Shown here: positions 7,619 to 46,122 of the stretch, piece by piece
How positions within the stretch are numbered: the first letter of the stretch is position 1
Layout: each line of letters opens with the position of its first letter
NCBI RefSeq assembly: GCF_019244115.1
Contig: NZ_JAFATE010000506.1
Location: forward strand, 1 to 63,911
From: Bradyrhizobium sp.
GTDB lineage: Bacteria > Pseudomonadota > Alphaproteobacteria > Rhizobiales > Xanthobacteraceae
Length of the DNA stretch: 63,911 nt
Direction: 5' to 3'
Position numbers and translations under genes: made by a program
The notes under the pieces: generated by a model
Seen by the model: only the letters and a program-made list of their open reading frames with translations
Databases searched by the model: none
What the model was told of the DNA's origin: nothing

Positions 7619-8722
7619 ATGATAATTCCTTTTGTTGACTTGAAAGTGCAGTACAAGGCCATCCAATCTGAGATTGATACCGCGATCAACTCCGTGTTGG
7701 ATTCCTGCCAGTTCACGCTCGGAACGGAAGTCGTCGAGTTCGAGAAGGAGTTCGCGACGTACTCAGGTAGTGTCCACGGCGTTGGTGTAAACACCGGGAC
7801 AAGCGCTTTGCACCTTGCGCTGTTGTCGGCCGGCATCGGCCCCGGCGACGAGGTCATCAGCGTTCCATTTACGTTCGTCGCGACGGCGGCGGCCATCCAC
7901 TACACCGGCGCGAAGACAGTATTCGTTGATATTGACCCGGTCACTTACTGCCTCGATCCTGCACTCCTCGAAGCAGCGATCACCCCGCGCACAAAGGCCA
8001 TCATACCGGTTCACCTGTATGGGCAGGCTGCCGATATGGACCCGATCTTGGCGGTCGCGCGAAAGCATAACTTGGTCGTAGTCGAAGACGCGTGTCAGGC
8101 GCACGGGGCCGAATACAAGGGGCGCCGCGTTGGAAGCATCGGCGACATCGGCTGCTTTAGCTTCTATCCTGGCAAGAACCTTGGCGCCTACGGGGAAGGG
8201 GGCATGGCGGTCACCGGGAATGCGACATTCGGTCGCTCGCTGCGCATGCTGCGCGACTGGGGGGCCGAAAAGAAATACGAGCACGTATTGAAGGGATACA
8301 ACTACCGCCTCGAGACGATCCAGGGCGCCATCCTCCGCGTCAAGCTGCGCCATCTGGATGGCTGGACCGAAGCGAGACGGCAAGCTGCGAAGAGGTATGC
8401 GGCGTTGCTTGCCGAAACCGGCATCCCGTTGCCGCAGGAGGCGTCCTACGCCCGGCACGTCTATCACATCTACGCGATCAGAGCGCCGAATCGTGATGCG
8501 CTTCATGCACGGCTCCTGGCTAAGGGCATTCAGAGCGGAATTCACTATCCCCACCCGATTCATCTTTTGCCCGCCTACGCCGATCTTGGCTACAAGCGCG
8601 GTCAATTCCCGGCTGCAGAGCAAGCCGCAGCGGAAGTTCTTTCGCTCCCGATGTATCCGGAGCTTACCCAGTCTGCTCAAGAAGCGGTAGCGGCCGCCGT
8701 CATCGAAAACTACCAAAAATAG
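7619..8722 (+). CDS. DegT/DnrJ/EryC1/StrS sugar aminotransferase
   Basis: IPFVDL, GTSALHLAL, PVHLYGQ, EDACQAHG, SFYPGKNLGAYGEGG. Confidence 0.95.
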   Translation: MIIPFVDLKVQYKAIQSEIDTAINSVLDSCQFTLGTEVVEFEKEFATYSGSVHGVGVNTGTSALHLALLSAGIGPGDEVISVPFTFVATAAAIHYTGAKTVFVDIDPVTYCLDPALLEAAITPRTKAIIPVHLYGQAADMDPILAVARKHNLVVVEDACQAHGAEYKGRRVGSIGDIGCFSFYPGKNLGAYGEGGMAVTGNATFGRSLRMLRDWGAEKKYEHVLKGYNYRLETIQGAILRVKLRHLDGWTEARRQAAKRYAALLAETGIPLPQEASYARHVYHIYAIRAPNRDALHARLLAKGIQSGIHYPHPIHLLPAYADLGYKRGQFPAAEQAAAEVLSLPMYPELTQSAQEAVAAAVIENYQK

Positions 8723-8763
8723 CGCTACCCTTCATCTTCATGCTTAAGTAGGGATAAACAATA

Positions 8764-9735
8764 ATGGAAATCGAAGGCGCTCGAATTCTTGTGACTGGCG
8801 GTTGCGGCCTGATCGGCTCGACAACGATCGATCTCCTGCTACGCGAGCATAATCCCGAGCAGATCGTCATTTTGGATAATCTGAGCCGGGGCACGACGCG
8901 AAATGTCGAGGAGGCGCTGAAGGATCGGCGCGTGAAGCTGATCGAAGGAGACATTCGCGACGTCCCGACGGTGCATGCGGTCACGCGGGGCATGGACGCG
9001 GTCATCCACATGGCGACCTTGAGAATAACTGCCTGCGCTGCGGAGCCGCGTGAAGCCCTTGGCGTGATGTGCGACGGGAGCTTCAACGTGTTAGAGGCGG
9101 CCCACGCGGCCGGTGTTCGGAAAGTCGTCACCGCATCGACAGCGTCCATCTACGGACTTGCCGATACCTTTCCGACCCGAGAAGAACATCATCCCTACAA
9201 TAACCGCACATGGTACGGAGCCTCCAAAATCATGCTGGAGGGCCTGCTTCGCTCGTTCAACGACATGTACGGCTTGCCTTACGTCGTGCTACGCTATTTC
9301 AACGTTTACGGCCCGCGCATGGACACTCACGGCAAGTATACCGAAGTGTTGATCCGTTGGATGGATCGTATCGCCAGCGGCCAGCGTCCCCTCATTCTCG
9401 GCGACGGCTCGACCACCATGGATTTCGTCTATATCGATGATGTTGCCCGGGCGAACATACTCGCACTGCAGAGCGGCGTGTCGGACGAGGCCTTCAACGT
9501 TGCAAGCGGGATCGAGACCAGTCTGAACGAACTCGCGGCGACATTGCTCGACGTCATGAACTCGAACCTCAAGCCGGAATACGGCCCCGAGCGAAAGGTG
9601 AATCCCGTTTCACGACGGCTCGCTGACACATCGAAGGCGGAAAAGCTGCTCGGCTTCCGGACGCGTGTCGGGCTAAGGGAAGGCTTAGAGCGACTCGTTA
9701 CCTGGTGGCATGCCAATCGTGAACTGGTGAGCTAA
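8764..9735 (+). CDS. NAD-dependent epimerase/dehydratase (extended SDR)
   Basis: LVTGGCGLIGS, YGASK catalytic motif, LRYFNVYGP, DFVYIDDVARA. Confidence 0.95.
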   Translation: MEIEGARILVTGGCGLIGSTTIDLLLREHNPEQIVILDNLSRGTTRNVEEALKDRRVKLIEGDIRDVPTVHAVTRGMDAVIHMATLRITACAAEPREALGVMCDGSFNVLEAAHAAGVRKVVTASTASIYGLADTFPTREEHHPYNNRTWYGASKIMLEGLLRSFNDMYGLPYVVLRYFNVYGPRMDTHGKYTEVLIRWMDRIASGQRPLILGDGSTTMDFVYIDDVARANILALQSGVSDEAFNVASGIETSLNELAATLLDVMNSNLKPEYGPERKVNPVSRRLADTSKAEKLLGFRTRVGLREGLERLVTWWHANRELVS

Positions 9736-9766
9736 GATCCGCGCTTTCATTCCTGAGGTTGCCGGC

Positions 9767-10906
9767 ATGATACCGATCATCAAGCCCGTAATGGACGAAC
9801 GGGAGGTTGAGGCTGCGCGACGCGTGATCTTGAGTGGCTGGATCACACAAGGGCCCGAAGTCGCGGCCTTTGAACGCGAATTCGCAGCGTTCACCGGGGC
9901 CGAGTTAGCCGTAGCCGTTTCGAACTGCACCACCGCTCTCCACCTGGCGCTCCTGGCGGCGGGAATTTCGCAGGGCGACGAGGTGATCACGGTCAGCCAT
10001 TCCTATATCGCGACAGCCAACTCGATCCGATATTGTGGCGCGATACCGGTTTTCGTCGACATCGAACCGGAAACGTTCAATATCGATCCGACATTGATCG
10101 AGGCCGCGATCACGCCAAGAACTCGCGCGATCCTTTGCGTGCATCAGATGGGCATGCCCTGTGACCTTGGCCGAATCGTCGAGCTTGGCCGCCGGCATGG
10201 CCTGGTTGTGATCGAGGACGCCGCCTGCGCGATCGCCTCCGAGATCCTCATCGACGGCGAATGGGAAAAGATCGGCCGGCCGCGCGGCGACGTGGCGTGC
10301 TTTTCCTTCCATCCCAGAAAAATCATGAGTACTGGCGACGGTGGCATGCTCACGACTTCCAAGCCCGAGTGGGCGGCCAAGTTCCGCCTCCTCAGACAAC
10401 ATGGAATGAGCGTCCCCGACACGGTGCGCCATGGCTCGCCGCAGGTCATTTTCGAAGATCATCCTGTTGTAGGTTACAACTACAGAATGACCGATATTCA
10501 GGCCGCTGTGGGTCGGGAACAGCTGAAGCGTCTTCCGGTGATCGTCCAGGCGAGACGGCAGCGGGCCAGCCGCTATTTGGAACAGCTTGCAGCAATCCCG
10601 GGGCTTGGCTTGCCAGTCCAACCCTCCTATGCCCGCAGCAACTGGCAAAGTTTTTGCGTTCGTCTACCCGACGGTTGCCATCAGCGCCAGGTAATGCAGG
10701 CTATGCTCGATGAAGAGGTCTCAACCCGGCGCGGCATCATGTGCGCGCACAGGGAAAAAGCCTATTCTGGAATGCGGCACCTCCATTCGCTCGCAAGATC
10801 GGAAGAGGCCCAGAATCGAACCGTCATCCTGCCGCTCTATCCGCAAATGACCGATACCGATCAGGACCGCGTTGTGGACGCGCTGGCTAGGGCCTGCGGC
10901 CGCTAG
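9767..10906 (+). CDS. DegT/DnrJ/EryC1/StrS sugar aminotransferase (second)
   Basis: SGWITQGP, SNCTTALHLAL, EDAACA, SFHPRKIMSTGDGGM, GYNYRMTD. Confidence 0.95.
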   Translation: MIPIIKPVMDEREVEAARRVILSGWITQGPEVAAFEREFAAFTGAELAVAVSNCTTALHLALLAAGISQGDEVITVSHSYIATANSIRYCGAIPVFVDIEPETFNIDPTLIEAAITPRTRAILCVHQMGMPCDLGRIVELGRRHGLVVIEDAACAIASEILIDGEWEKIGRPRGDVACFSFHPRKIMSTGDGGMLTTSKPEWAAKFRLLRQHGMSVPDTVRHGSPQVIFEDHPVVGYNYRMTDIQAAVGREQLKRLPVIVQARRQRASRYLEQLAAIPGLGLPVQPSYARSNWQSFCVRLPDGCHQRQVMQAMLDEEVSTRRGIMCAHREKAYSGMRHLHSLARSEEAQNRTVILPLYPQMTDTDQDRVVDALARACGR

Positions 10907-11979
10907 CGAGACGCATATGTCAGCGGCTCGTCGGATTTGTGTCGGCGAATACGAACGGTTTCTCCCCGGCCACGCATCGAGCTTGTGGCGGCTTCGATCA
11001 CTTCCACGATGCGGAGGCCAAGCCGGCCATCTGTGATGGGAGGTTCGCCCTTTGCGATACATTCCACGAAATGTTCGACAGCGACCCTCAATGCTTCGCT
11101 TCCGTCGAGTTTCGGCGCCCACATATCTCCTGTGCGATAGCCGACGCGCATCTCGTGTATCACCTTCGGATCATCGGTGAAGCTAATACCCTTGTCGTAG
11201 ACCCTGACCTTCTCGCTAGGCTCTAGGTCATCGTATGTGATCATTCTCTTGCTTCCACCGACGAGAACCTTCCGAACCTTCACGGGCGCAAGCCAGCTGA
11301 CGTTGGTGTGACCTATCGCGCCGGAATCGTAGAACAGCGTAATGTACGCAAGATTTTCCGGAGTCCCTGGAAAGTGGTTGATGCCGCTGGCAGAGACCGC
11401 TATCGGATGCTCATCCAAGAGATAGTCGAGAATCGCGAAATCGTGAACTGCAAGATCTGCGATCACGTTAACGTCGCGCTGAAACAGGCCGAGATTAACT
11501 CGCGTCGAGTCGTAATAGAGGATCTTCCCAAGATCTCCGCTCTTGATCAATTCACCCATCTTGCGGACCGCACCGGTGTAGATGAAGGTGTGATCCACGA
11601 ACAGTGTGAGTGAACGCTTCTCCGCCTCCTCAACCAGCTTTTCTGCCTGGTGACTTGTTTCCGTCATCGGCTTTTCGAGCCACAAATGCTTTCCTGCCTT
11701 GAGGGCTGCCATACCGAATTCGAAATGGGTCGCAACTGGCGTTGCGACCACGATGGCTTCGATACTTTCGTCGGCGATGAGATCTTCGAAATGCGTTGTT
11801 GTTCTAATCGAAGGATATCGGCGCGAAACAGACTCAAGCTGCGCAGGCCTGAGATCTGCGACGGCGACCGTCCTGACGCCGGGCAATTCTGCAAAATTTC
11901 TCAGTAGATTGGGTCCCCAGTACCCGTAACCGATGAGGCCAATGTTCACCACTGCTTTCGATCCCAGTTTGTCTTCCAT
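10903..11979 (-). CDS. Gfo/Idh/MocA family oxidoreductase (nucleotide-sugar dehydrogenase)
   Basis: IGYGYWGPNLLRNF, ATPVATH, LEKP, DLAVHD; its stop codon overlaps that of the convergent aminotransferase (CTAG 10903-10906). Confidence 0.93.
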   Translation of the reverse strand: MEDKLGSKAVVNIGLIGYGYWGPNLLRNFAELPGVRTVAVADLRPAQLESVSRRYPSIRTTTHFEDLIADESIEAIVVATPVATHFEFGMAALKAGKHLWLEKPMTETSHQAEKLVEEAEKRSLTLFVDHTFIYTGAVRKMGELIKSGDLGKILYYDSTRVNLGLFQRDVNVIADLAVHDFAILDYLLDEHPIAVSASGINHFPGTPENLAYITLFYDSGAIGHTNVSWLAPVKVRKVLVGGSKRMITYDDLEPSEKVRVYDKGISFTDDPKVIHEMRVGYRTGDMWAPKLDGSEALRVAVEHFVECIAKGEPPITDGRLGLRIVEVIEAATSSMRGRGETVRIRRHKSDEPLTYASR

Positions 11980-12019: not shown

Positions 12020-12502
12020 TCAAGCCGTTCTCTTCCGAGTGTCGCCAATGACGCGCGCAGGTACTCCTGCGACAATCGCATAGTCCGGGACGTCCTTGGT
12101 CACAACCGAACCGGCGGCGATCAGCGACCCTTCTCCGACGATAATGCCGCACAGGATGGTCGCGTTGGAGCCGATCGAGGCACGACGCCTGACGAGTGTT
12201 TTTTCAACGGACCAATCTGCTTCCGTCTGCGGCACGCCGTCCAGATTGGTCGCCTGCGGGAAACGATCATTGGTGAACATCACGCCGTGCCCGATGAAAA
12301 CTTCGTCTTCAATTGTGACGCCTTCGCAGATGAAGCTGTGCGAGGAGAGCTTGCATCGCGCACCGATGGTGGCGTTCTTCTGAATCTCGACGAAAGAGCC
12401 AATCCGGCTTTCATCCCCGACGGTGCAGCCATAAAGATTGACTTGATCCTCATGGTAAATCCGCACATCTTTGCCAAGGCCCACCGTGCTCGCGATCGGC
12501 AT
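12020..12502 (-). CDS. hexapeptide-repeat (left-handed beta-helix) sugar N-acyltransferase, WbpD/WxcM-like
   Basis: SFICEGVTIEDEVFIGHGVMFTND, ASIGSNATI, AAGSVVTKDVP, GVPARV; AGGAG upstream. Confidence 0.93.
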   Translation of the reverse strand: MPIASTVGLGKDVRIYHEDQVNLYGCTVGDESRIGSFVEIQKNATIGARCKLSSHSFICEGVTIEDEVFIGHGVMFTNDRFPQATNLDGVPQTEADWSVEKTLVRRRASIGSNATILCGIIVGEGSLIAAGSVVTKDVPDYAIVAGVPARVIGDTRKRTA

Positions 12503-13344: not shown

Positions 13345-14811
13345 GTGTCACTCCGCAGGATTGTGACTGGTACCGCACTCGTCTCATCGGCCAGCCTCAC
13401 CCGCCTCCTCGCGCAGTTCATCGCCGTCCCGATTCTGTCGCGCCTGCTCACGTCCACCGACTACGGATTGGTCGCGATTGCATCGCCCCTCATACTCTTC
13501 TCAATGCTGATCACGGACGCGGGACTTGGCATGTCCCTCGTTCGCTCGACGCCGCTAAAGGACGAGACGGCGTGGTCGACAAGCTTCTGGGTGATCTTCT
13601 CCTTGGGCGGTGCAATAGTGCCGATCCTGGTCCTTCTTTCGCCGCTCGTGGCCTACACCTTCGGCGAACCGAAGCTCAAGCTAATTGTCACCACGCTGTC
13701 CTTAATCATCGCGGCACAGGCGGCCGCCGTAATTCCCGGCGCGGCGCTCCAGCAGGCCCGCCAGTTCTCAACTATTGCGGCTATCGAAATCAGTTCGACC
13801 GTTCTTGGTGTCGCTACGGCTGTCACCGCCGCATTCATGGGAGCCGGGGTCTGGGCCTTGGTTGCCCAACAGATTACCTTTTTCTTCACCCGGCTGTTAG
13901 TGACCTTCGTCTGCTCGCCATTCCGCCCGCGCTTGGTCTTCGATCTCGCCGCGATCAAACATCACCTGGTATTCGGCCGGGACGTTCTTAGTACCAACCT
14001 TATCGCTCAGCTGTCCGGATCGGTCGACAACCTTGCTCTCGGAGGTGTGCTGGGACCGACTTCGGTGGGCTTCTACACCATCGCCATGCAGTTCATTCGC
14101 CTGCCGACGATGGTCATCACCGGGCCGATGCAATACGTGCTCTATTCGCATTTGGCGACAGTCAAGGAGAACTTGCCGGCCATCCGGCGGACTTTCCTGC
14201 TCGCCACTCGCGTCCTCAGTGTCCTCGTGGTCCCGTCGATGAGCTTGGTGGCGGCCGCCCATCACTCGATCTTCAAGATCCTGCTCTCCGAAAAGTGGGC
14301 CCAATCGGGCACAATCTTCATGATCCTGGCGGCGGCTGGAGCGATCCAGGCAATGATGGCGCTCGGCGGTGACATCATGCTGGTGCTGGGCCGGCCTGAT
14401 CTGAGGCTGCGGATGACGATCGAGTTCAGCCCCATCTGGCTCGGCGCGCTGCTGCTGTCGCTTTTGTTGTCCCACGATATCCATTGGGTGGCCGGAGCCT
14501 ACACCTTCGCGGTCCTGCTTTATGTACCGCGCACGCTGAGCCTCGTGCTCTCTCTCCTTCAATGCCGGTTCGCGACATATCTCGAGACCTTGGTTGTGCC
14601 AGCTCTGATCACCCCGATCGCGATACTGGTCTACTCGGAGGTCAACAGAACCTTTGCACTTCAGAAGTTTGCCGACGTCGGGCTCTGCGCCCTCTTGGCT
14701 TTCGCGACGATGGTCGTCTGTGTCCTCGTTCAGCGACGTTCCTTCATCGACGAAAGCGCGCTGCTGTCTCTCCCGTTCGGATCGACTCCAGCCGTGCAAA
14801 AGCAGAGCTAA
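13345..14811 (+). CDS. Wzx flippase (ExoT-like polysaccharide biosynthesis protein)
   Basis: About 12 hydrophobic segments; LSRLLTSTDYGLV, GAGVWALVAQQ, LGPTSVGFY, LLSEKW. Confidence 0.9.
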   Translation: MSLRRIVTGTALVSSASLTRLLAQFIAVPILSRLLTSTDYGLVAIASPLILFSMLITDAGLGMSLVRSTPLKDETAWSTSFWVIFSLGGAIVPILVLLSPLVAYTFGEPKLKLIVTTLSLIIAAQAAAVIPGAALQQARQFSTIAAIEISSTVLGVATAVTAAFMGAGVWALVAQQITFFFTRLLVTFVCSPFRPRLVFDLAAIKHHLVFGRDVLSTNLIAQLSGSVDNLALGGVLGPTSVGFYTIAMQFIRLPTMVITGPMQYVLYSHLATVKENLPAIRRTFLLATRVLSVLVVPSMSLVAAAHHSIFKILLSEKWAQSGTIFMILAAAGAIQAMMALGGDIMLVLGRPDLRLRMTIEFSPIWLGALLLSLLLSHDIHWVAGAYTFAVLLYVPRTLSLVLSLLQCRFATYLETLVVPALITPIAILVYSEVNRTFALQKFADVGLCALLAFATMVVCVLVQRRSFIDESALLSLPFGSTPAVQKQS

Positions 14812-15749
14812 TGAAAGTATCCGTCGTCATCTGCACCAAAGACCGAGCTCACGCGATCGTTCATTGCCTGCAATCGATCGACGCGGCTGCGCGGGCGGCC
14901 TCGCTGAGAGATGCCGAAATCGTGGTGGTTGACAATGCATCGATTGACGACACGGAGGCCGTTCTGCACAATTTCGCAGCCGACGCATCGATCCCGGTTC
15001 GGGTTGAATGTGAGCCTCGCACCGGCATCGCGATAGCAAAAAATCGAGGACTCCGAACAGCGCAAGGCGACATTCTCGTCCTCATCGACGATGATTGCCG
15101 CCTGCAGCGGGACTACTTCGTCGAGCTCGTGCACCTGCATGCGACGGATAAGGACCTCGCACTGCGTGGCGGCCGGGTCGAATTGGGGAACGCCGGGGAC
15201 TTATCGCTGACGATCAAGACCGATACCACGCGAAACCAATGGCATATCAAGGACCGCTCCGCGCGATATGAGAACCTCGGGAACTGCTTTCTGGGCTGCA
15301 ATCTTTTCGTGAGCCGGATGGTCTACGAACGACTTGGCCCGATGGACGAGCTGTTCGGGGTCGGGTCCATCCCGGCAGGAGAGGATACCGACTATATCTT
15401 TCGTGCCTATACCGCGGGCATCAAGCTCGAATACATGCCGAACATCGTAGTTTACCATCATCACGGCCGCCAAACTTCAGAGGCCGCCCAGCGACTCTGG
15501 CGGAGTTACATGATCGGCTCCGGCGCTCTCTACGCCAAGTATCTCTTCAAATGCCCCGATCTGTGCCGACAGGCGCCCTGGGATCTAAAGGGGTTCGTAA
15601 GAGAGACGCTCGCCCGCGAGAACCGGTTTCTGCCCGAATATGACTTTTCCTACGCGGATAAGATGCGTTGCTACGCAGCCGGCGCCTCTTCCTATCTCTC
15701 GGCCAACATGAGGGTTCAGGGGCAGAATCGCCGCTCATGCGGAGCGTGA
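14811..15749 (+). CDS. glycosyltransferase family 2
   Basis: VSVVICTKDR, VVVDNAS, IDDD, GEDTD; translationally coupled to the flippase (TAATG). Confidence 0.92.
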   Translation: MKVSVVICTKDRAHAIVHCLQSIDAAARAASLRDAEIVVVDNASIDDTEAVLHNFAADASIPVRVECEPRTGIAIAKNRGLRTAQGDILVLIDDDCRLQRDYFVELVHLHATDKDLALRGGRVELGNAGDLSLTIKTDTTRNQWHIKDRSARYENLGNCFLGCNLFVSRMVYERLGPMDELFGVGSIPAGEDTDYIFRAYTAGIKLEYMPNIVVYHHHGRQTSEAAQRLWRSYMIGSGALYAKYLFKCPDLCRQAPWDLKGFVRETLARENRFLPEYDFSYADKMRCYAAGASSYLSANMRVQGQNRRSCGA

Positions 15750-15892
15750 GCTCGTTAACCGATCTGGCGTCAATCTGGCCCTGCTTTGTTCACGGACGGC
15801 GCAGCCTGGCGCGCAACCGCGTTCATCAAAACCTTCGAAACGGCCGCAACCTGCCGCTCGGCGTCTTGACGACACGTGATCAAAAATCGACA

Positions 15893-30780: not shown

Positions 30781-30905
30781 CCTGGGAGTATCCTCGTTGG
30801 GGTTGACACCCCTTAACTCTGACTGATCTTGACTCTTTACAGCGTATTAGATTTTCACAAAGTGGCAAGCGACCAGCAGAACTCTGGCGGTGAAATGGTG
30901 CTGAG

Positions 30906-34538: not shown

Positions 34539-34891
34539 ATCCGCGAACGAAATCGGCACCCGTCAATCCACCATCGCCTCATCGCATCCGGGGATGCTCG
34601 CTGCTCCAGACAGAGGCTTCGTGATCCGTTCGCTGGTAATATATCCCATTTTTGCGTTGCAATCCGCGCCTTCGCTCCAGCTTTATGCCACGTCGAGCGG
34701 TATAAAAATCAAGCCCCATGATCGTTCGCCGTCAAAAAGCCGTTATCTAAGCCAGAAAATGCCGATATTGGCGCGAAAGCTCGCGCAGTCAACCATACCG
34801 CTGAACTCTGGTTGATCGGTTGAGCAGCATTCGATAGTTGTTGTGTTCTGAAAGCAATTCGCAATCAGAAACAGTTGTTTGGAGTGGTTCC

Positions 34892-35533: not shown

Positions 35534-35593
35534 ACTTCCTTGGCGGGAACGGCGACTCACGGCTGACGCAACGGGTGGTTCGAGAGATTGTGG

Positions 35594-37855
35594 ATGAACG
35601 TAACCGGACAGTTTTCACCCTATTCGCCCGTCTACAACGATCCACGGGCGGAGTCTCTGCCGCTGCTCCAGGTTAAAAGCTTTCTGCGCCGGCAGTGGCG
35701 GCTGATTGCCCTGGTGACCGGCCTGTCGCTCATCGTCGGCGTCGCCTACCTGGCTGTCACGCCGGCACGCTATACCGCGCAAGCGGACATGATCATCGAC
35801 ACGAAGAGAGTGACCTGGACCCAATCGGAGCTCGCGACCGAAAACCGCAGCATCGAAGATGCCGGTGTCGAGAGCGAAATCGAGACCACCAAGTCCGAGC
35901 GGGTGGCCCTCTCCGTGATCAATCATCTGCATCTGGACGACGATCCCGAATTCGCCGGCGCCGGCCAGGGCCTCAAGCGGCACGTCCTCTCTTTGTTGCA
36001 CCTTGCTCCGGCGGTCCAGGTCGAATCGGCAAAATCGGACCCGCTGCGCACCGCGCTCGCCGTCGTGGAAGGCAACCTGCGCGTGACCCGCTTGGGGCGC
36101 AGTTATCTTGAGCAGATTGAATTCACCTCGCTCGATCCCGAGAAGGCCGCGAGGATCGCAAACGCCTTCGCCGACGCGTATATCGAGGATCAGTTGCAGG
36201 CCAAATTCGAGGCGACGCGCCGCGCCAGCGTTTGGCTCGAGCAGCGCATCGGCGAGTTGCGCCAGCAGGCCAGCGACGCCTACAGGGAAGTGCAGGACTT
36301 CAAATCTAAGAACAGCATCATCATCGGTGCCGACGGCAAGCTTGCCAGCGAGATCGAGCTCGACCAGCTTGGGATTGCACTGGCGAAAGCTCGCGCCGAC
36401 ACCAGCCAGGCGAGGGCAAAGCTCGAGCGCATATCGCGTGTCCTCGAACAGCGGCCCGAGTCGAGCAAGGAAAGCTTCAACATTCCAGATCCAGTCGTGA
36501 CCGACGCACTCAACAACCCGGTCATCACCAAATTGCGGCAGCAGTTCCTCGACGATCAAAGCCGCGAATCCGAGTGGAGCGCGCGCTACGGCGCGGACCA
36601 TCAGGCGGCGAGAAACCTGCGCGCTGAAATGGCGGCCTTGCAACGCGCGATCTGGGACGAAATCTCGCGCATCGCGGAAAGCTACAAGAGCGAGCTGCAG
36701 ATCGCAAAGAGTCAGGAAGATTCGATCGACAAGCGGATGGTTGAAGTCTTCCAGCAATCGGGGGCTACACGGCAATCGCAGGTGCAGTTGCGCGAGCTGG
36801 AGACGGCCGCCAACACCTATCGAAGCATTTACGAGACTTTCCTCTCTCGTTTCACCCAGTCGGTCCAGCAGCAATCGTTTCCCTCGACCGAGGCGCGCGT
36901 CGTCACTCTGGCTACGCCTCCGGGCAGGCCAAGCTCACCCAAGACGAGCTTGACGATGGCTTTGGCCTTGCTCTGCGGGATTGGCTTCGGAGTGTTGTCG
37001 GCCTTCGCGCGTGAACAGATGAACCGGCAGATTCACACCCGCGCGCAGCTGGAAAGCCTCTTGGGCGCCAATTGCCTTGCCGTCATTCCGGCGTTCGCCC
37101 GAGAAAAGGCCGCGCTGCGAAAGAACCGGGCATTGCGTGAATCGGGCGCATTCCGGCAGATCAGCGAAGTTGCACCTTTTTCCGCGACCGCCGAGGCGCT
37201 GCGCTACATCAAGGTTGCGATCGACCTGCACCCGTCCGGCGGCAAGGTGGTCGGTATCGTCTCTGCACTTCCAGGCGAGGGAAAAACCACCGTCGCCGCG
37301 GGGTTCGCTGCGTTCGTCGCGCGAGGCGGCGCACGAACCCTGCTGATTGACGGAGATTTGCGCAATCCATCTCTGAGCAGCACATTCGGCTATACGAACA
37401 CTCCGGGGCTGGTCGAACTGGTGGCGGAGAAGTCGTCCTTTGAGGACCTGGTCATCACCGACTCGAAATACAAGCTGGATTTCCTGCCATCGGCGACGCG
37501 AATCAAACCTCCCAACAGTTCGGACATTCTGAACTCGCCGACGATGAAGCAGACGCTGAAGGCGGCGGCGAGCAAGTACGATTACGTACTGGTCGACTTG
37601 CCTCCGGTTCTGCCGGTGGTCGACGTCAAGGCGGCTGCCCATCTGTTCGATGCCTTCATCCTCGTCGTCGAGTGGGGGAGCACATCGACCGAAGAGATCC
37701 TCAAGGCTGTTGCCGCCTCCCCGGTTCTCTCTGAACGGCTCTTGGGCGCGGTTCTCAACAAGGCCGACGAAGCAGTGATGCGTCGCTTCGAGGGCTATTC
37801 GGACCGAAACTACCACTACTACACCAACGAAAGACTCCCCGCCGAAGTTGCCTAG
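35594..37855 (+). CDS. exoP: Wzc/ExoP polysaccharide co-polymerase / BY tyrosine kinase (copy 2)
   Basis: Same architecture as copy 1; SALPGEGKTT, LIDGDLRNP, PxxPSSPK motif before TM2, YSDRNYHYY tail. Confidence 0.92.
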   Translation: MNVTGQFSPYSPVYNDPRAESLPLLQVKSFLRRQWRLIALVTGLSLIVGVAYLAVTPARYTAQADMIIDTKRVTWTQSELATENRSIEDAGVESEIETTKSERVALSVINHLHLDDDPEFAGAGQGLKRHVLSLLHLAPAVQVESAKSDPLRTALAVVEGNLRVTRLGRSYLEQIEFTSLDPEKAARIANAFADAYIEDQLQAKFEATRRASVWLEQRIGELRQQASDAYREVQDFKSKNSIIIGADGKLASEIELDQLGIALAKARADTSQARAKLERISRVLEQRPESSKESFNIPDPVVTDALNNPVITKLRQQFLDDQSRESEWSARYGADHQAARNLRAEMAALQRAIWDEISRIAESYKSELQIAKSQEDSIDKRMVEVFQQSGATRQSQVQLRELETAANTYRSIYETFLSRFTQSVQQQSFPSTEARVVTLATPPGRPSSPKTSLTMALALLCGIGFGVLSAFAREQMNRQIHTRAQLESLLGANCLAVIPAFAREKAALRKNRALRESGAFRQISEVAPFSATAEALRYIKVAIDLHPSGGKVVGIVSALPGEGKTTVAAGFAAFVARGGARTLLIDGDLRNPSLSSTFGYTNTPGLVELVAEKSSFEDLVITDSKYKLDFLPSATRIKPPNSSDILNSPTMKQTLKAAASKYDYVLVDLPPVLPVVDVKAAAHLFDAFILVVEWGSTSTEEILKAVAASPVLSERLLGAVLNKADEAVMRRFEGYSDRNYHYYTNERLPAEVA

Positions 37856-37860
37856 CGTCC

Positions 37861-38631
37861 TTGGGCGCTTTGGGCTTGCGGATCGGAGCGGTTGCGCCAG
37901 TCTTGCCCCCTGCATCCAAACCAGCGCTCTCCGTTCGCTTGCTTTTTCTGCGAGCCCTCACCGCTGCCGTCGCTTGCTTCGGCTTTGCCTGGGGCCTTTC
38001 CACCGTGTGGGGAGGTGAGGTGACCGACGATTTTCGCGATATCGAGTCGCGCCTGCTGCGGTTTGAAGCCTTCAATCAGGCGACAACAGCGGAAGTGTTG
38101 TCGAGCGCGGCCGCGCGCGAAGCGAGCCCCTGCGACAGTCACACACAGCGTGCACTGCTGCTGATGGAGATTCCCCTCGCGGATGCGGCGCTGCGGTCTG
38201 GCGCCCTCAACGAATACAGTCGACGAACCCAGGCAATGGAGATCCGGGCCAGAGAGCTCCTCGCCTGCACCCCGCGGGATTCATTCGTCTGGCTCGTGTT
38301 GTTCGGGATCGCGACCGGGCACGGCAATTTGGACCAGAGCGCGTTCGACCTGCTTGCGATGTCCTACGAGACGTCGCCAAACGAAGCTTGGGTCGCGAAC
38401 CGTCGCATCATGCTCGCAATTCCGGTCCTGCGTTCCGCGCCCGAGCCGATACAGGAACGTATACTCGGCGAATTTCAAGAACTAGTCCGGCGCGGCTTTG
38501 TCGACATTCCCGCACTCGCCTATCTCGGCGCATCTGAACCTGTTCGCGCATCGCTGCGAGCGCGGATCGAAGCACTCGACGAGCGCACGCAAAAGGCCTT
38601 CACCGAGGCAATAAAGCAGCGTCGGACCTGA
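37861..38631 (+). CDS. hypothetical membrane-anchored protein, EPS-locus associated
   Basis: One N-terminal TM segment followed by a helical domain with two Cys; 5 bp after the Wzc copy 2 stop. Confidence 0.7.
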   Translation: MGALGLRIGAVAPVLPPASKPALSVRLLFLRALTAAVACFGFAWGLSTVWGGEVTDDFRDIESRLLRFEAFNQATTAEVLSSAAAREASPCDSHTQRALLLMEIPLADAALRSGALNEYSRRTQAMEIRARELLACTPRDSFVWLVLFGIATGHGNLDQSAFDLLAMSYETSPNEAWVANRRIMLAIPVLRSAPEPIQERILGEFQELVRRGFVDIPALAYLGASEPVRASLRARIEALDERTQKAFTEAIKQRRT

Positions 38632-39232: not shown

Positions 39233-39386
39233 ACGGTCGCGTAGTTGACCGTTTATCCTAACGGAACATTACCCAGAATAGGGTTGTACGATGCATGTCT
39301 GCTTCGTACACGGGGAGAGAGATGAAGAAAGTCTGAAGGACAGCCCGGGGATTTTAGATTTTGTTTCGAGTACCGAGGTAAGTGTC

Positions 39387-40052
39387 TTGGCCAATACCCG
39401 TATCGCTCTGCAATTTGCTCCCGTGACATCACGGGGCCCGATTGGACTGACCCCGAAGAGGATGATCGACATCCTGCTGGCGCTCTCCGGGATTGTGCTT
39501 CTCGCTCCCTTATTGATCATCTGTTTCGTTGTCACCGTCCTCTCATCACCAGGTCCTGCGCTGTTCCGCCACAAGCGCGTCGGCTACAACGGCAAGCACT
39601 TCGACTGCCTCAAATTCCGCACCATGGTAACAGACGCTCCTGAGCGTCTGCATCGGCTGCTGGACACGGACCCGGTGGCAGCCGCCGAATGGGCGGCGAG
39701 CCGCAAGTTGCGCTACGACCCCCGGATCACGGCGATCGGCTCCCTCCTGCGCAAGTCGAGCCTGGACGAACTCCCCCAGCTGTTCAACGTTCTCAAGGGC
39801 GACATGAGCATCGTTGGACCTCGGCCGATTACGGACGAGGAACTCGAGAGGTACGAAAGCTGCGTCGGCGCGTATCTGGCATGCCGGCCAGGCATAACCG
39901 GGCTGTGGCAGGTCAGCGGCCGAAGCTCGGTGACATACGGCAAGCGCGTGGCTTGCGACACGTTCTACGCTCGCAACTGGTCGATGGCTCTCGACATCAA
40001 GATCATGATTGTCACGATCCCATCCCTCCTGGCTTCCGACAGCGCGTTCTAA
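39387..40052 (+). CDS. exoY: priming undecaprenyl-phosphate glycosyl-1-phosphate transferase, ExoY-like
   Basis: PIG..KRMIDI, CLKFRTM, EWAASRKLRYDPRIT, LRKSSLDELPQL, GPRP, PGITGLWQVSGR; TTG start with GAGGT upstream. Confidence 0.9.
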   Translation: MANTRIALQFAPVTSRGPIGLTPKRMIDILLALSGIVLLAPLLIICFVVTVLSSPGPALFRHKRVGYNGKHFDCLKFRTMVTDAPERLHRLLDTDPVAAAEWAASRKLRYDPRITAIGSLLRKSSLDELPQLFNVLKGDMSIVGPRPITDEELERYESCVGAYLACRPGITGLWQVSGRSSVTYGKRVACDTFYARNWSMALDIKIMIVTIPSLLASDSAF

Positions 40053-40696: not shown

Positions 40697-41674
40697 ATGA
40701 CAAACATTCTGGTGGCAGGCGGAGCCGGCTACATCGGCGCGCACACCTGTGTTGACCTGTTCAACAAGGGCTTCCGGCCCATCGTCTACGACAATCTTTC
40801 GAACGGTCACGCCGAATTCGTCAAATGGGGACCGCTGGAGATTGGTGACATCCGCGACCGGCGCAGGCTTGACGAAGTCTTTGCGAAATACCGGCCTGCG
40901 GCCATCATCCATTTCGCCGCGGCAATCGAGGTCGGTGAATCGGTCCGCGACCCCGCCGCCTATTTCGACAACAATGTCGGCGGAACGCTCACCTTGCTGC
41001 GGGCAGCGCAGTCGGCCGGCATCGACAAAATCGTGTTTTCCTCGACCTGCGCGACATACGGGGTGCCTTCAGCGATCCCGATGAGCGAGGCCCACCCGCA
41101 ATCGCCGATCAATCCCTACGGTCGCAGCAAGCTCATCGTCGAGCAGATGTTGCAGGACCTCGATCGCTACCAGGGCTTTCGGTCCTTTGTCCTGCGCTAC
41201 TTCAATGCGGCCGGGGCAGACCCGGACGGTCGAATTGGCGAATGGCATCTGCCAGAGACGCATGCGATTCCGATTGCAATGGATGCGGCACTCGGCCGGC
41301 GGCCGCACTTCGAGGTCCTCGGCACCGACTACGACACGCGCGACGGCTCCTGCGTCCGCGATTTCGTTCACGTCCTCGACCTTGCCGACGCCCATACGCG
41401 CGCAATCGCCCATCTGCTGAATGGCGGCCCAAGCCACGCCGTCAATCTCGGGACCGGCCAGGGGACGACGGTGAACGAGCTGCTAGCCGCCATTCGGCGC
41501 GTCGTCGGCCGCGATTTTCCGATTAAGTACAGCCCGCGTCGGCCCGGCGACTCACCTGAACTGGTCGCCGACAACAGGCTCGCCGGTTGCACGCTCGGCT
41601 GGTCTCCTAGGCACGATCTGCGATCGATCATCGAAACAGCGTGGAAGTGGCACGCGAACCACCTTCCACATTGA
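40697..41674 (+). CDS. galE: UDP-glucose 4-epimerase GalE (ExoB)
   Basis: LVAGGAGYIGAH, VFSSTCATYG, NPYGRSK, LRYFNAAGAD, DGSCVRDFVHV, RRPGD. Confidence 0.96.
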   Translation: MTNILVAGGAGYIGAHTCVDLFNKGFRPIVYDNLSNGHAEFVKWGPLEIGDIRDRRRLDEVFAKYRPAAIIHFAAAIEVGESVRDPAAYFDNNVGGTLTLLRAAQSAGIDKIVFSSTCATYGVPSAIPMSEAHPQSPINPYGRSKLIVEQMLQDLDRYQGFRSFVLRYFNAAGADPDGRIGEWHLPETHAIPIAMDAALGRRPHFEVLGTDYDTRDGSCVRDFVHVLDLADAHTRAIAHLLNGGPSHAVNLGTGQGTTVNELLAAIRRVVGRDFPIKYSPRRPGDSPELVADNRLAGCTLGWSPRHDLRSIIETAWKWHANHLPH

Positions 41675-41835: not shown

Positions 41836-42492
41836 ATGGCGCGACCCCGAGCAACGATATCGCTGTTAGCGGCGCTTGCGGGCTGTCTCTTTTCAGGGAA
41901 CGCCGAGGCTCGCAACCGCATTGCGCCGGAATCGGATACTTCTTCGGGAATCGTCGAAGCATTCCCCGTTCTGGCTCCATTCCAGCACGTTCGTTTCTGC
42001 ATTCGCTATCCTGGCGATTGCAAATCGAACCCGAACGAAGCTGATCGTCTCGAGCTCAATGATGAGACCTCAGCGCTCCTGAAGCGAATCAACGGCCGCG
42101 TCAACGCTGCCATTGCCCCGGCCCTCAAGAGCTACGGCTCGAATCTCGCGGATCGCTGGACGATCGCACCTACGAGCGGAGACTGCAACGACTATGCCGT
42201 GACAAAGCGGCACGAGCTCGTCGCGAGCGGCCTGCCGGGACGCGCACTACGGCTATCCGTAGTGAAGACAGCGTCGGGAGCAGGACACCTCGTCCTTGTT
42301 GCCGCGACCACAAACGGCGACCTGGTGCTCGACAATCTGACGGATGCAATTCGTCCGTGGCAGAGAACGGGCTATGAATGGCTCAAGATCCAATCGAGCC
42401 GAGACGCAAAGTTCTGGTCCGGCCTCAAGGCGTCGCGCGCTGCTCCGGCCGTGTCGCAGGACCAACGCAAGCTGCGGTTCGCCGATCGCTAG
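41836..42492 (+). CDS. bacterial transglutaminase-like cysteine peptidase (BTLCP; HvyA/LapG family), exported
   Basis: Signal peptide; catalytic triad motifs GDCNDYAVTKR, GHLVL, VLDNL. Confidence 0.92.
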   Translation: MARPRATISLLAALAGCLFSGNAEARNRIAPESDTSSGIVEAFPVLAPFQHVRFCIRYPGDCKSNPNEADRLELNDETSALLKRINGRVNAAIAPALKSYGSNLADRWTIAPTSGDCNDYAVTKRHELVASGLPGRALRLSVVKTASGAGHLVLVAATTNGDLVLDNLTDAIRPWQRTGYEWLKIQSSRDAKFWSGLKASRAAPAVSQDQRKLRFADR

Positions 42493-42518
42493 CCGAGCTC
42501 CGCCGCGCGTCGCGGCCG

Positions 42519-43925: not shown

Positions 43926-43955
43926 CGTGACGCGATTGAAGCGTTTGGTTTCAGT

Positions 43956-45164
43956 TCACCACCTGGTCTTTACGGCCGTGTTCACGTTCGTCACCGAGTT
44001 CGCGGTGTTGGAGACCGAATTTGCGGTGTTGTTAACGAGCGTCAGGAACTTGTAGTAGTCCACGACCTTGGCGTTGGCGACGTACATCACGTCCTTGGTC
44101 CGCATCTGGAAGGTCGACGCAAGCAGCAATCCCGAGGGATCACGCAAGTTTATGTGGTAAATCGTCGGAACACTGTCGGTGATGAACCGCGACGTGTCGA
44201 TGCCGAGCCGCTGCAGGAAGGGGCGATCCTCATGCCGATAGACGTAGACCTCACTCGGATCGGACTGCTGATCGTTGAGCCCGCCCGCCTTGCCCATGGC
44301 CTGGGCCAATGTCAGCGTCTCCGTATCGAACGCAATCTCCGAGTTGAAGCCGAAGACGTTCTGGTTGAGCGCACCAAGCGCGGTGAAGGTCGGCGACTCG
44401 CGCGTGATGAAGATTACGTCGTTCGGGCGAATGAAGATGTTTTCGCTCGGGTCGTGCACGATGCGGCTGAGCAGAACCTTGACCCGCCTGCCGTCACGCT
44501 GCAGCGTCACGTAGCTCTCGATCGCCTCGAATTTCGGTCCACCGGCTCGGGCGATCAGGTTCAGTATGCGCTCGCCGACGCTGTTGAGCGACAGCACGCC
44601 GGGGGTGTTCACATCCCCGAGCACGCTGACGATGCTGGAATGCTGCTCGGCCAGCCTGACGACCACCTGCGGCTCGATCGCGCGATTGCGGAGACGGGCC
44701 ACGATCGCGTCCTGAATTTCCGGAATTGTGCGCGCCGCGGCCGGGATCTCGCCGGCATAGGGAACGGCGATGTTGCCCTTCTGGTCGACCGCCTGCGCCG
44801 GCAGGTCGACGAAGTTGCCCGGGCGGGCGCCTGCCGCCTGTGCCGGGGTGAACAAGCCTCCCGGCGCGGCCTCGAAGATCGAGACGTTGAGCACGTCGCC
44901 AACGCCGACGACCTGGACCGGCTTGGGGCGCTTGTCGGAGAACGCTCCCTTGAAGGTCACCAAGTTCGGCTGCGACAGGAAACCGATCGTGTCTGCCGAG
45001 ATGTCAACGAGCGCGTAAGGCAGCGCGGCGTTGGACCGAATGCCGGAGGTGGCCTGGGTCTCGACGGCATCGCTCTTTGGTCCCGTTCCGGGCAGAAGCG
45101 AGCACGCGGGCAGCAGCGCAACCGCGACGAGTGCCAGGAGTGGATTTCCAAGCCGTTTCAGCAT
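43956..45164 (-). CDS. outer-membrane polysaccharide export lipoprotein (Wza/PssN/CtrA-type OPX)
   Basis: Lipobox LPAC, GVGDVLNVSIFEA, VPYAG, AIEPQVVV, VLGDVNTPG, AGGLND. Confidence 0.93.
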   Translation of the reverse strand: MLKRLGNPLLALVAVALLPACSLLPGTGPKSDAVETQATSGIRSNAALPYALVDISADTIGFLSQPNLVTFKGAFSDKRPKPVQVVGVGDVLNVSIFEAAPGGLFTPAQAAGARPGNFVDLPAQAVDQKGNIAVPYAGEIPAAARTIPEIQDAIVARLRNRAIEPQVVVRLAEQHSSIVSVLGDVNTPGVLSLNSVGERILNLIARAGGPKFEAIESYVTLQRDGRRVKVLLSRIVHDPSENIFIRPNDVIFITRESPTFTALGALNQNVFGFNSEIAFDTETLTLAQAMGKAGGLNDQQSDPSEVYVYRHEDRPFLQRLGIDTSRFITDSVPTIYHINLRDPSGLLLASTFQMRTKDVMYVANAKVVDYYKFLTLVNNTANSVSNTANSVTNVNTAVKTRW

Positions 45165-45294
45165 GCCCAATTGTCTCGCTTTTCGTCGATTGCGGTTGTC
45201 GAAATCGCGCGGCCAGACAAGCAGCGCCACGTGATCGTCCCCAAAAACCGCAAATCGCGCCCCTCAAGTGCCATATCAGTATCGAGCCGCACCG

Positions 45295-45309
45295 CTAACT
45301 TGATGTTAA
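45295..45309 (-). promoter_or_regulatory. CtrA-like box upstream of wza
   Basis: Minus strand TTAA-CATCAAG-TTAGC, one mismatch to TTAA-N7-TTAAC. Confidence 0.4.
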
Positions 45310-45867
45310 TTAGCCGAAAAACAGCCCGCTAAAATCCGTGTCATCGGGACCCTACAGGGCGATTCTCCCGCATCAAAGCGCGGAGTTCCTCGCCGCCCCT
45401 GATTTGCGGAACAAGTTGCAATCAGGCCACACCGCCGTCATCTCCCATTCAAAATAAAACGTTTGGCGCACAAGCGCTTAGTGGCGAATCAGAGAAGTTC
45501 CGGTATTATCGTCGCTGGGGGCTGTGGACAGGAAATTACTTCACATAGAGGAGATCTACGCCAACCGCCTCACTATCGCCGGCATCGCTGAGAAGCTGGA
45601 GTTTGGCTGTCGCGATTTTGTCATGAACATGCCGCTTGAACTGCCGGGATCGTTCGCTACAACGCCATGTGAATTTCGTGAGCCTGTCGCGATGGTGCGG
45701 AACCAAGACTGCAATGGTCCGCTTGAGGTGATATCAATGGATGATATCGACAGGGTGTAGAGCCGTACAATTTTAGGCGGTACTCGCGCGGGGATGCGCG
45801 TGAGCTTGCGCCGCCGCGTGGATTGTGGCTAAATTTCGTTAAAGAACGAAACGACGGGGACACTGGA

Positions 45868-46122
45868 ATGCTATTCGCGGCCATTGCGCTCGCATTGGTG
45901 GGATTCGTGGTCGGCGTTGTGTTCCGATTCAAGGTGCTGTTGCCGATCCTCCTGCTACTGCTTCTCGTCTCGATCATCGTTTCGGTTGGCCGCGGCTTTG
46001 GCTTTGGCGATTCGGTGCTCACCGTCTTCGTTGCCCAGACCATCATCCAGTCCAGCTATTTTCTCGGGCTGGTGGCGCGTGCGGTGTTCTCGGCAACCGA
46101 CCGCATGCGGCAGATTCTCTGA
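45868..46122 (+). CDS. small hydrophobic membrane protein, possibly ExoX/SyrA/Psi-like
   Basis: 84 aa, three hydrophobic segments, QTIIQSSYFLG resembles the ExoX LIQVGYFLA motif. Confidence 0.65.
   Translation: MLFAAIALALVGFVVGVVFRFKVLLPILLLLLLVSIIVSVGRGFGFGDSVLTVFVAQTIIQSSYFLGLVARAVFSATDRMRQIL

What the first reader, a model, noticed from the sequence alone, without database searches (positions are those of the whole stretch)
7619..46122. Large succinoglycan-derived locus that probably builds an undescribed, heavily decorated polysaccharide
Seen: exoY, exoLAOU, exoQ/T/Z-like genes, galE, GH16, two Wzc, Wza, three extra GTs, an amino-sugar cassette, a methyltransferase, an ATP-grasp ligase and a flavoenzyme. 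Established: Sinorhizobium succinoglycan needs ExoY-A-L-M-O-U-W plus ExoH (succinyl) and ExoV (pyruvyl). Here exoM is missing from its usual place between exoA and exoO, and exoW/H/V are not recognisable. Inference: a shortened Gal-Glc backbone whose side chain carries N-acylated amino sugars and methyl/amide groups instead of succinate and pyruvate. The left half also looks less GC-rich than the flanks, consistent with modular acquisition.
Basis: partly seen in the sequence, partly recalled or inferred. Interest (0 to 1): 0.75.

Follow-up and report, generated by a model that had tools for sequence, protein, structure and literature searches.

The report
Succinoglycan pathway with swapped fourth enzyme
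A Bradyrhizobium-like bacterium carries a relative of the succinoglycan slime pathway that lacks the gene for the fourth sugar step, and an unrelated sugar-transfer enzyme likely takes its place, which would give a polysaccharide with a different backbone; the neighbouring amino-sugar genes have lost their usual partner transferase and probably do not decorate it.

Summary
The gene inventory is real. This is a Wzx/Wzy exopolysaccharide locus with relatives of ExoY, A, L, O, U, Q, Z and B; no succinoglycan-type ExoM, W, V or H was found in the 91%-complete genome. Missing W/V/H is known from S. fredii; missing exoM is the unusual part. The best reading is replacement, not a shortened backbone. 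The GT4 at 27929-29257 is fused to an ExoO-like domain in 39 of 41 long homologues. Among 45 ExoL-positive genomes, 25 have true ExoM, 11 have this GT4, none has both intact; one locus fuses ExoO to ExoM instead. It likely adds sugar four, probably alpha-linked. The decoration claim is weaker. The amino-sugar cassette's partner transferase is a truncated remnant here (6830-7270), bridged by contigs of three runs. The ATP-grasp/flavoprotein pair travels with unrelated polysaccharide loci. Acetyl and methyl groups are plausible. Low GC is confirmed. No paper found describes this variant; the scan's notes held nothing on it. New variant of a known kind; no chemistry tested.

The parts
6101..6847 (-). 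5'-truncated EAL phosphodiesterase fragment, joined to the transferase remnant; left edge of the locus
   Evidence: Pfam EAL positions 61-236 of 236 only; junction read
6830..7270 (-). Truncated, frameshifted remnant (about residues 19-165 of about 550) of the GT-B glycosyltransferase that flanks the amino-sugar cassette in kin
   Evidence: 59-67% identity in three frames to G119/G320 copies; only match in the genome; bridged without gaps by single contigs in runs X1, X2, X3
7619..8722 (+). DegT-family sugar aminotransferase 1, likely C3-type
   Evidence: PF01041; best solved relatives include QdtB and WbpE
8764..9735 (+). NAD-dependent sugar epimerase (SDR)
   Evidence: PF01370; nearest solved: UDP-glucose 4-epimerases, WbgU, WbpP
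9767..10906 (+). DegT-family sugar aminotransferase 2, likely C4-type
   Evidence: nearest solved: ArnB, perosamine synthetase
10903..11979 (-). Gfo/Idh/MocA dehydrogenase, candidate sugar 3-dehydrogenase
   Evidence: PF01408; best NCBIfam NF040723 UDP-GlcNAc 3-dehydrogenase, under its cut-off
12020..12502 (-). Hexapeptide N-acetyltransferase
   Evidence: nearest solved: WxcM-like, 3mqg, QdtC
13345..14811 (+). Wzx flippase (ExoT-like)
   Evidence: PF13440; 25% to ExoT
14811..15749 (+). GT2a, accessory GT2, not an ExoM
   Evidence: own clade in GT2 tree; orthologues in some related loci with or without ExoM
15668..17311 (+). Wzy polymerase, ExoQ-like (true start probably downstream)
   Evidence: PF04932; 28% to ExoQ
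17417..18172 (+). Class I SAM methyltransferase, candidate sugar O-methyltransferase
   Evidence: Pfam; 44-45% homologues beside exoQ-like genes in loci L165 and L171
18222..19397 (-). GH16 glycanase, ExsH/EglC-like catalytic domain
   Evidence: PF00722; NF052454 under cut-off; 36% to ExsH
19608..20798 (+). GT4a, accessory GT4, likely side chain
   Evidence: 43-50% homologues in loci that keep ExoM (L163, L175, L193)
20813..21874 (-). ExoU orthologue
   Evidence: 42%; groups with ExoU, support 99
22128..23159 (-). ExoO-like GT2, stand-alone here, usually fused to GT4b in kin
   Evidence: 36% to ExoO; separate clade within the ExoO/ExoU family
23175..24209 (-). ExoA orthologue
   Evidence: 47%; support 100
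24187..25347 (-). ExoL orthologue, probable CTG start
   Evidence: 43%; CTG at the start position behind a GGAG-like site in kin
25621..27864 (+). Wzc 1 (ExoP-like)
   Evidence: TIGR01005 364 bits, under cut-off; 66% to Wzc 2
27929..29257 (-). GT4b, proposed replacement of ExoM
   Evidence: PF13692; fusion and exclusion pattern; model closest to retaining GT-B enzymes
29431..30780 (-). ATP-grasp ligase of unknown substrate
   Evidence: PF02655; ATP-grasp fold, no close solved relative
30906..32132 (+). FAD/NAD(P)H flavoprotein, partner of the ATP-grasp gene
   Evidence: Pfam; adjacent in 9 of 9 other Bradyrhizobium hits
32655..33713 (+). ExoZ-like acyltransferase 3
   Evidence: 34% to ExoZ, no ExoH hit
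33771..34559 (-). Metallophosphoesterase, conserved beside wzc
   Evidence: PF00149; synteny
34838..35533 (+). Conserved hypothetical protein of the export chassis
   Evidence: 53-64% in kin
35588..37855 (+). Wzc 2 (ExoP-like)
   Evidence: TIGR01005 394 bits, under cut-off
37861..38631 (+). Conserved hypothetical protein of the export chassis
   Evidence: 46-56% in kin
39291..40052 (+). ExoY-like initiating phosphoglycosyl transferase, likely Gal-1-P
   Evidence: 47% to ExoY; best NCBIfam WbaP-type, under cut-off
40697..41674 (+). GalE/ExoB UDP-glucose 4-epimerase
   Evidence: TIGR01179 over cut-off; 69% to ExoB
41836..42492 (+). BTLCP transglutaminase-like peptidase
   Evidence: PF06035
42519..43925 (-). 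Second O-antigen-ligase/Wzy_C membrane protein
   Evidence: PF04932; conserved beside wza
43956..45230 (-). Wza outer-membrane export protein, not ExoF-type
   Evidence: PF02563, NF011658; ExoF match only E 1.6e-4
45823..46122 (+). Small hydrophobic protein conserved at the chassis end; not shown to be ExoX
   Evidence: 41-54% in kin; no significant match to ExoX
46147..47352 (-). Conserved hypothetical protein at the chassis end
   Evidence: 35-57% in kin; no Pfam match

Best explanation
This is a succinoglycan-type Wzx/Wzy exopolysaccharide locus that lacks exoM, and the GT4 at 27929-29257 likely replaces it, adding the fourth, branch-point sugar, probably with an alpha linkage. Inferred path: ExoY puts Gal-1-P on the lipid carrier (UDP-Gal from GalE), ExoA and ExoL add two glucoses, GT4b adds sugar four, the ExoO-like enzyme and ExoU start the glucose side chain, and GT4a and/or GT2a cap it in place of ExoW. 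The ExoZ-like enzyme would O-acetylate and the methyltransferase may O-methylate; no pyruvyl or succinyl transferase was found. Wzx, the ExoQ-like Wzy, two Wzc and Wza would flip, polymerise and export; the GH16 would cut oligomers. The amino-sugar cassette is probably an orphan of a second glycan module whose transferase is broken here. Shown: gene content, fusions, exclusion pattern, remnant. Inferred: all donors, linkages and the order of steps.
For: GT4b is fused to an ExoO-like domain in 39 of 41 long homologues, 8 of which also carry an ExoA domain; no ExoM domain was picked in any. Of 45 ExoL-positive genomes, 25 have true ExoM (E<1e-100) and no intact GT4b, 11 have GT4b and at best an ExoM paralogue (E 1e-35), 9 with distant ExoL have neither. 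Of 68 loci showing L, A and O: 34 ExoM only, 26 GT4b only, 8 neither, 0 both at my cut-offs. On an ExoA tree of 60 rows the state changes 7 times, at least 2 forced by strong branches. L147 fuses ExoO-like (aa 11-336) to ExoM (aa 346-638) in the same order; L171 has an inverted exoM-exoO pair next to a 79-residue C-terminal GT4b remnant. The GT4b model (pLDDT 91.5) matches retaining GT-B enzymes such as GlgM, BshA, MshA and PimA best. In S. meliloti exoM mutants make no polymer and exoO mutants polymerise four-sugar units (PMC1403797, passage).
Against: No biochemistry, no expression data. Ten of the 11 GT4b genomes are Bradyrhizobium or close kin, so they are not independent; 7 of the 11 and 6 of the 25 supplied rows of the profiles; the tree was the quick version. 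My 80-bit cut leaves out the L171 remnant (77 bits). G302 holds two GT4b copies, one fused and one free beside the ATP-grasp gene, and one cluster has ATP-grasp fused to GT4b, so the free copy may have a further role. The window's ExoO-like protein is a separate clade from S. meliloti ExoO, so its acceptor may differ. Fold matches are at 10-17% identity, and ExoL is also GT4-like in Pfam though succinoglycan is all beta-linked (PMC3233446, passage), so the alpha prediction is soft. A Novosphingobium plasmid has exoL, exoA and GT4b without a nearby exoO.
Confidence: 0.6

Rival explanations
1. Shortened backbone: the repeat has a three-sugar Gal-Glc-Glc backbone, the ExoO-like enzyme branches directly from the ExoL product, and GT4b adds a side-chain sugar.
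For: exoM is absent; the ExoO-like protein forms its own clade; fusion to ExoO fits a step after ExoO as well as before; alpha-linked side-chain sugars are known in S. fredii EPS (PMC8227245, passage).
Against: The same ExoO clade occurs with true ExoM in sister loci (L165, L147); a side-chain enzyme gives no reason for strict exclusion with ExoM, and the side-chain candidate GT4a does coexist with ExoM.
Confidence: 0.25
2. The amino-sugar cassette still feeds this polymer: a 3- or 4-acetamido sugar nucleotide is added to the side chain by GT2a or GT4a.
For: All five cassette genes are open frames; the close epimerase type (80-91%) occurs in 5 of 401 genus genomes, all exoL-positive (5 of 9 such genomes); the cassette abuts wzx-GT2a-exoQ.
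Against: In G119, G320 and G385 the cassette comes with its own GT-B transferase, flippase, GT2 and methyltransferase (G106 similar); here the transferase is a remnant and the others have no orthologue (best 28-31%). GT2a and GT4a occur in genomes without the close cassette type (G414) or in distant loci.
Confidence: 0.2
3. The ExoM-like gene on contig C101 acts in trans, so the backbone is canonical succinoglycan.
For: 35% identity to ExoM over 242 aa; sister to the true ExoM clade with support 95.
Against: It lies in its own cluster with Wzc and polymerase and is 60% identical to the cluster-I copy in G005; four GT4b-type kin at 99-100% completeness (G119, G320, G385, G414) have no match at E<=1e-25.
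Confidence: 0.06
4. The locus is a decaying mosaic that makes little or no polymer in this strain.
For: A deletion junction and pseudogene at the left edge; low GC, rare in the genus (9 of 401).
Against: All core genes are full-length open frames; a scan of the intergenic gaps with relatives' proteins found no other remnant.
Confidence: 0.08

Closest known systems
Succinoglycan (EPS I) exo cluster of Sinorhizobium meliloti 1021
   Same: ExoY, A, L, U, O-like, Q, T-like, Z, B, P and an ExsH-type GH16 at 25-69% identity; exoL-exoA-exoO order.
   Different: No ExoM, W, V, H, K or N in the locus; GT4b, GT4a, GT2a added; Wza of another type, two Wzc, a ligase-like gene and BTLCP as export chassis.
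S. fredii NGR234/HH103 exo cluster (and M. loti R7A EPS)
   Same: Succinoglycan core with exoV, exoW, exoT and exoH absent and a different side chain (PMC8227245, passages; L035).
   Different: S. fredii keeps exoM, and so do the exoL-A-M-O-N-P loci of order-level genomes; this locus does not.
Bradyrhizobium diazoefficiens USDA110 EPS cluster I (exoU-exoM-metA-exoP-exoT-exoB)
   Same: Same genus, same gene names, a methyltransferase among EPS genes (10.1101/2025.07.22.666213, first 10,000 characters read; PMC8707904, passages).
   Different: A cluster of that type lies on contig C101, not here; its 'ExoM' and 'ExoU' are paralogues of the succinoglycan enzymes.
3-acetamido-sugar pathways (WbpB/WbpE/WbpD, QdtB/QdtC)
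   Same: Dehydrogenase, PLP aminotransferase and hexapeptide N-acetyltransferase together.
   Different: An extra SDR epimerase and a second, C4-type aminotransferase; product unknown; partner transferase broken in this strain.

Membership tests
Wzx/Wzy-dependent exopolysaccharide locus | Initiating phosphoglycosyl transferase, GTs, Wzx, Wzy, Wzc and Wza present | tested here: met
Succinoglycan (EPS I) cluster | ExoY, ExoA, ExoL orthologues | tested here: met
   47%, 47%, 43%; ExoA clade support 100
Succinoglycan (EPS I) cluster | ExoM orthologue | tested here: not met
   best genome hit E 3e-35 against <1e-100 for true ExoM; outside the ExoM clade; genome 91% complete
Succinoglycan (EPS I) cluster | ExoO orthologue | tested here: inconclusive
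   same position, 36%, but a separate clade in the ExoO/ExoU family
Succinoglycan (EPS I) cluster | ExoU orthologue | tested here: met
   42%; clade support 99
Succinoglycan (EPS I) cluster | ExoW, ExoV (pyruvyl) and ExoH (succinyl) | tested here: not met
   no orthologue by tblastn; PF04230 0 matches; 21 PF01757 genes in the genome, none matching ExoH at E<=1e-3
Succinoglycan (EPS I) cluster | Octasaccharide Gal-Glc7 product with acetyl, succinyl, pyruvyl | not testable with these tools
   needs NMR/GC-MS
S. fredii-type exo cluster | exoL-A-M-O-U core kept, exoV/W/H absent | tested here: not met
   V/W/H absent as there, but exoM absent too
B. diazoefficiens EPS cluster I | exoU-exoM-metA-exoP-exoT-exoB order with its own paralogues | tested here: not met
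   such a cluster maps to contig C101 instead
GT4 retaining glycosyltransferase (for GT4b) | GT-B fold closest to retaining enzymes | tested here: met
   PF13692; Foldseek top hits GlgM, BshA, MshA, PimA at 12-17% identity
GT4 retaining glycosyltransferase (for GT4b) | Forms an alpha linkage from a nucleotide sugar | not testable with these tools
   needs an enzyme assay
3-acetamido-sugar pathway (WbpB/E/D type) | Dehydrogenase, C3 aminotransferase, N-acetyltransferase plus an intact transferase that uses the product | tested here: inconclusive
   three enzymes present by similarity; partner transferase is a remnant

The most novel reading that the evidence does not exclude
An undescribed family of succinoglycan-like polymers, spread over Bradyrhizobium and other Alphaproteobacteria (GT4b homologues in Roseomonas, Lichenicola, Sphingomonas, Novosphingobium, Caulobacter, Phenylobacterium), in which a retaining GT4 has repeatedly traded places with ExoM, turning the branch-point linkage from beta to alpha; in this strain it also carries O-methyl and acetyl groups and an unknown group installed by a widespread ATP-grasp/flavoprotein pair.
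Probability: 0.35. Interest if true: 0.65.

Novelty: new variant of a known kind. Interest (0 to 1): 0.45.

Why it matters
Succinoglycan-type polymers are symbiotic signals and industrial thickeners, and their four-sugar backbone is treated as fixed. A natural swap at step four gives a ready part for engineering the backbone and a clean test of how ExoO and ExoQ read their acceptors. A 2025 preprint states that the EPS genes of photosynthetic Bradyrhizobium are still unidentified; cultured strains such as STM 3809 carry this locus type, so the prediction can be tested, though it is rare in the genus (9 of 401 sampled). It also flags a mis-annotation: many GT4b proteins without a GT2 domain are named 'ExoO' by their source.

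Tried and rejected
ExoM supplied by GT2a: rejected, 23% identity and its own clade. The 99-aa ORF as ExoX: no significant match. Assembly error as the cause of the pseudogene: rejected, single contigs bridge it in three runs, two of which may be the source of this DNA. tRNA, Rfam RNA or mobile-element repeats at the borders: 0 tRNA, 0 Rfam matches, repeats only from the two wzc and two degT paralogues or chance. Promoter scan of 25.3-33 kb: not above chance. Expression: no RNA holder listed, no evidence either way. ATP-grasp substrate: PDB sequence search, fold search and ESM Atlas gave only the generic family; the flavoprotein likewise. The ExoL tree did not finish, and the ExoA tree is the quick version. 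An ExoM search of the Novosphingobium plasmid was blank but covers one replicon only. No complex prediction was run. One earlier scan note concerned another topic and was not used.

Full report
Setting. The window is the whole of contig C183 of a 7.6 Mb, 915-contig assembly, 91.4% complete. The closest named carriers of its exoA are Bradyrhizobium sp. SZCCHNS2002, HKCCYLS3077 and STM 3809 plus three alphaproteobacterial MAGs; their contigs match genomes listed as the same genus, so I read the host as Bradyrhizobium (inference).

Observation. As reference I fetched the S. meliloti 1021 pSymB cluster; the record is unannotated, so gene names were set by order, length and Pfam from recall. Identities: ExoL 43, ExoA 47, ExoO 36, ExoU 42, ExoY 47, ExoB 69, ExoZ 34, ExoQ 28, ExoT 25, ExoP 32 and 34%; the GH16 follows ExsH (36% over 181 aa). 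ExoV and ExoH have no tblastn hit in the genome, ExoW only a weak one on the window's ExoO, and PF04230 has 0 matches. An ExoM-like gene on C101 (35%) is 60% identical to a copy in an exoU-exoM-exoP-exoB type cluster of G005 and is sister to, not inside, the true ExoM clade. GC is 58.0% over 7.5-27.9 kb against 63.6% for the genome; genes there fall at the 3rd-25th percentile of GC3.

What is ordinary. S. fredii lacks exoV, W, T and H and makes a succinoglycan-core polymer with another side chain (PMC8227245, passages). Related Bradyrhizobium loci shuffle the same modules: one has an ExoV-like gene (G288), some an ExoW-like gene (G414, G302), others heptose or deoxy-sugar genes. The right half (wza, ligase-like gene, BTLCP, exoY, wzc, phosphoesterase and hypothetical genes) is a chassis shared by most of them and in part by an Agrobacterium larrymoorei plasmid locus that keeps exoM. 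exoL was found in 9 of 401 genus genomes, own included; a tenth hit at 26% is not an orthologue.

What is unusual: exoM and GT4b. In most kin the ExoO-like gene is fused at its C-terminus to a GT4 domain 43-47% identical to the window's stand-alone GT4b. Of 41 long homologues of GT4b, 39 carry an ExoO-like domain, 8 of these also ExoA, one an ATP-grasp domain and one an acyltransferase. I then searched 45 ExoL-positive genomes (10 Bradyrhizobium-type, 24 from a draw of 400 in the order, 11 from a draw of 400 in the class) with GT4b and ExoM profiles: 25 have ExoM at E<1e-100 and no GT4b at E<=1e-30; 11 have GT4b and no ExoM better than E 1e-36; 9, all with distant ExoL, have neither. Seven of the 11 and 6 of the 25 contributed rows to the profiles. 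Among 68 loci showing L, A and O together, 34 have ExoM only, 26 GT4b only, 8 neither (mostly short contigs) and none both at cut-offs of 130 and 80 bits; several GT4b loci are near-copies. The single near-exception, L171, has a 79-residue C-terminal GT4b remnant (77 bits) beside an inverted exoM-exoO pair, which reads like a swap caught in the act; L147 encodes one 645-aa ExoO-ExoM fusion. On a quick ExoA tree (60 rows, four near-copies left out) the state changes 7 times, at least twice across strong branches. Kin share labels, so this shows recurrence, not a measured correlation.

Mechanism. In S. meliloti the transferases act in the order exoA, L, M, O, U, W (PMC4443731 and PMC3233446, passages); exoM mutants make no polymer and exoO mutants polymerise four-sugar units (PMC1403797, passage). 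That ExoM adds the branch-point glucose in beta-1,4 linkage is recalled, not read. A GT that is fused to the step-five enzyme, sometimes also to the step-two enzyme, and appears exactly where the step-four enzyme is missing most simply does step four. Its model (pLDDT 91.5) is a GT-B fold closest to retaining enzymes, so an alpha linkage is the prediction; the donor is unknown. GT4a has 43-50% homologues in loci that keep exoM and so suits a side-chain role. The rival, a three-sugar backbone with GT4b in the side chain, cannot be excluded because the ExoO-like protein forms its own clade.

Decorations. The five-gene cassette looks like a 3-amino/acetamido pathway with an added epimerase and C4-type aminotransferase. 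Its close type occurs in 5 of 401 genus genomes, all exoL-positive; a distant type occurs in 58 others. In G119, G320 and G385 it comes with a roughly 550-aa GT-B transferase, a second flippase, a GT2 and a methyltransferase, and G106 is similar. In the window only the first third of that transferase remains, frameshifted and joined to a truncated EAL gene; the other partners score at best 28-31% in the assembly. Single contigs of runs X1, X2 and X3 span the junction without gaps; X1 and X2 may be the source of this DNA. So amino sugars on this strain's polymer are doubtful, though the intact genes and their tie to exoL loci keep the option open. The ATP-grasp and flavoprotein genes are adjacent in 9 of 9 other hits among 226 genus genomes, none of them exoL-positive, at least 6 amid other polysaccharide genes, and twice in Granulicella plasmids. 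Near exoL loci they occur in only G041 and G302 of 9 kin. Their chemistry is unknown. The methyltransferase has 44-45% homologues in two other exo loci, so O-methylation is plausible.

Literature. Nine searches of the open library showed no description of an exoM-less, GT4-bearing succinoglycan locus; subscription journals are mostly missing. I read passages of PMC8707904, PMC1403797, PMC8227245, PMC4443731, PMC6144797, PMC3233446, PMC2877612 and 10.64898/2026.10.16.759691, and the first 10,000 characters of 10.1101/2025.07.22.666213, which says the EPS genes of the B. elkanii and photosynthetic groups are unidentified; its supplementary tables were not seen and may list strains that carry this locus. 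The scan's own notes held nothing on it.

Verdict. Observation confirmed; interpretation partly supported. A new variant of the succinoglycan-type pathway, most likely with GT4b in place of ExoM (0.6). 'Heavily decorated' is overstated for this strain. Interest 0.45.

Noticed in passing
window 25345-25347 (- strand): exoL appears to start at a CTG codon behind a GGAG/GGGG-like site; CTG stands at this position in 8 of 9 Bradyrhizobium-type genome loci matched (G288 has ATG) and in 26 of 62 pattern matches overall, with TTG, GTG or ATG at the same place in others. Standard ORF calling cuts five residues.
   Followed up: partly
window 29431-32132; L254-L262; L204, L205: An ATP-grasp ligase and an FAD/NAD(P)H flavoprotein form a fixed pair in Bradyrhizobium and Granulicella, mostly inside polysaccharide loci; Atlas clusters add Actinomycetota for the flavoprotein. 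No characterised relative was found: a candidate for an unknown polysaccharide modification.
   Followed up: partly
G119:C22:63057-74332; G320:C7:383044-394837; L236: Intact form of the amino-sugar module: cassette plus a 550-aa GT-B protein with no NCBIfam match, own flippase, GT2, methyltransferase and sometimes a deacetylase; these strains are the better test of amino-sugar decoration.
   Followed up: partly
L052:3786-7700 (G041) and L073:17564-19967 (G288): Related loci carry GHMP sugar kinase, nucleotidyltransferase/HAD and epimerase genes (heptose-type precursor genes); G041 also has a second, distant exoL.
   Followed up: no
window 41836-47352: The export chassis holds a BTLCP transglutaminase-like peptidase, a second O-antigen-ligase-like protein and three conserved proteins without Pfam family; a paralogous chassis lies on contigs C519, C602 and C389.
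   Followed up: no
own genome, contigs C62 and C689: Two further dehydrogenase/aminotransferase sets (one with an acetyltransferase and flippase) suggest other 3-amino-sugar pathways in this genome.
   Followed up: no
window 930-4709 and 55670-62374: Flanks hold cobalamin genes (cbiB, cobU, cobC-like, cobS), a shikimate dehydrogenase, an indolepyruvate-oxidoreductase-like pair in two frames and a sulfatase.
   Followed up: no
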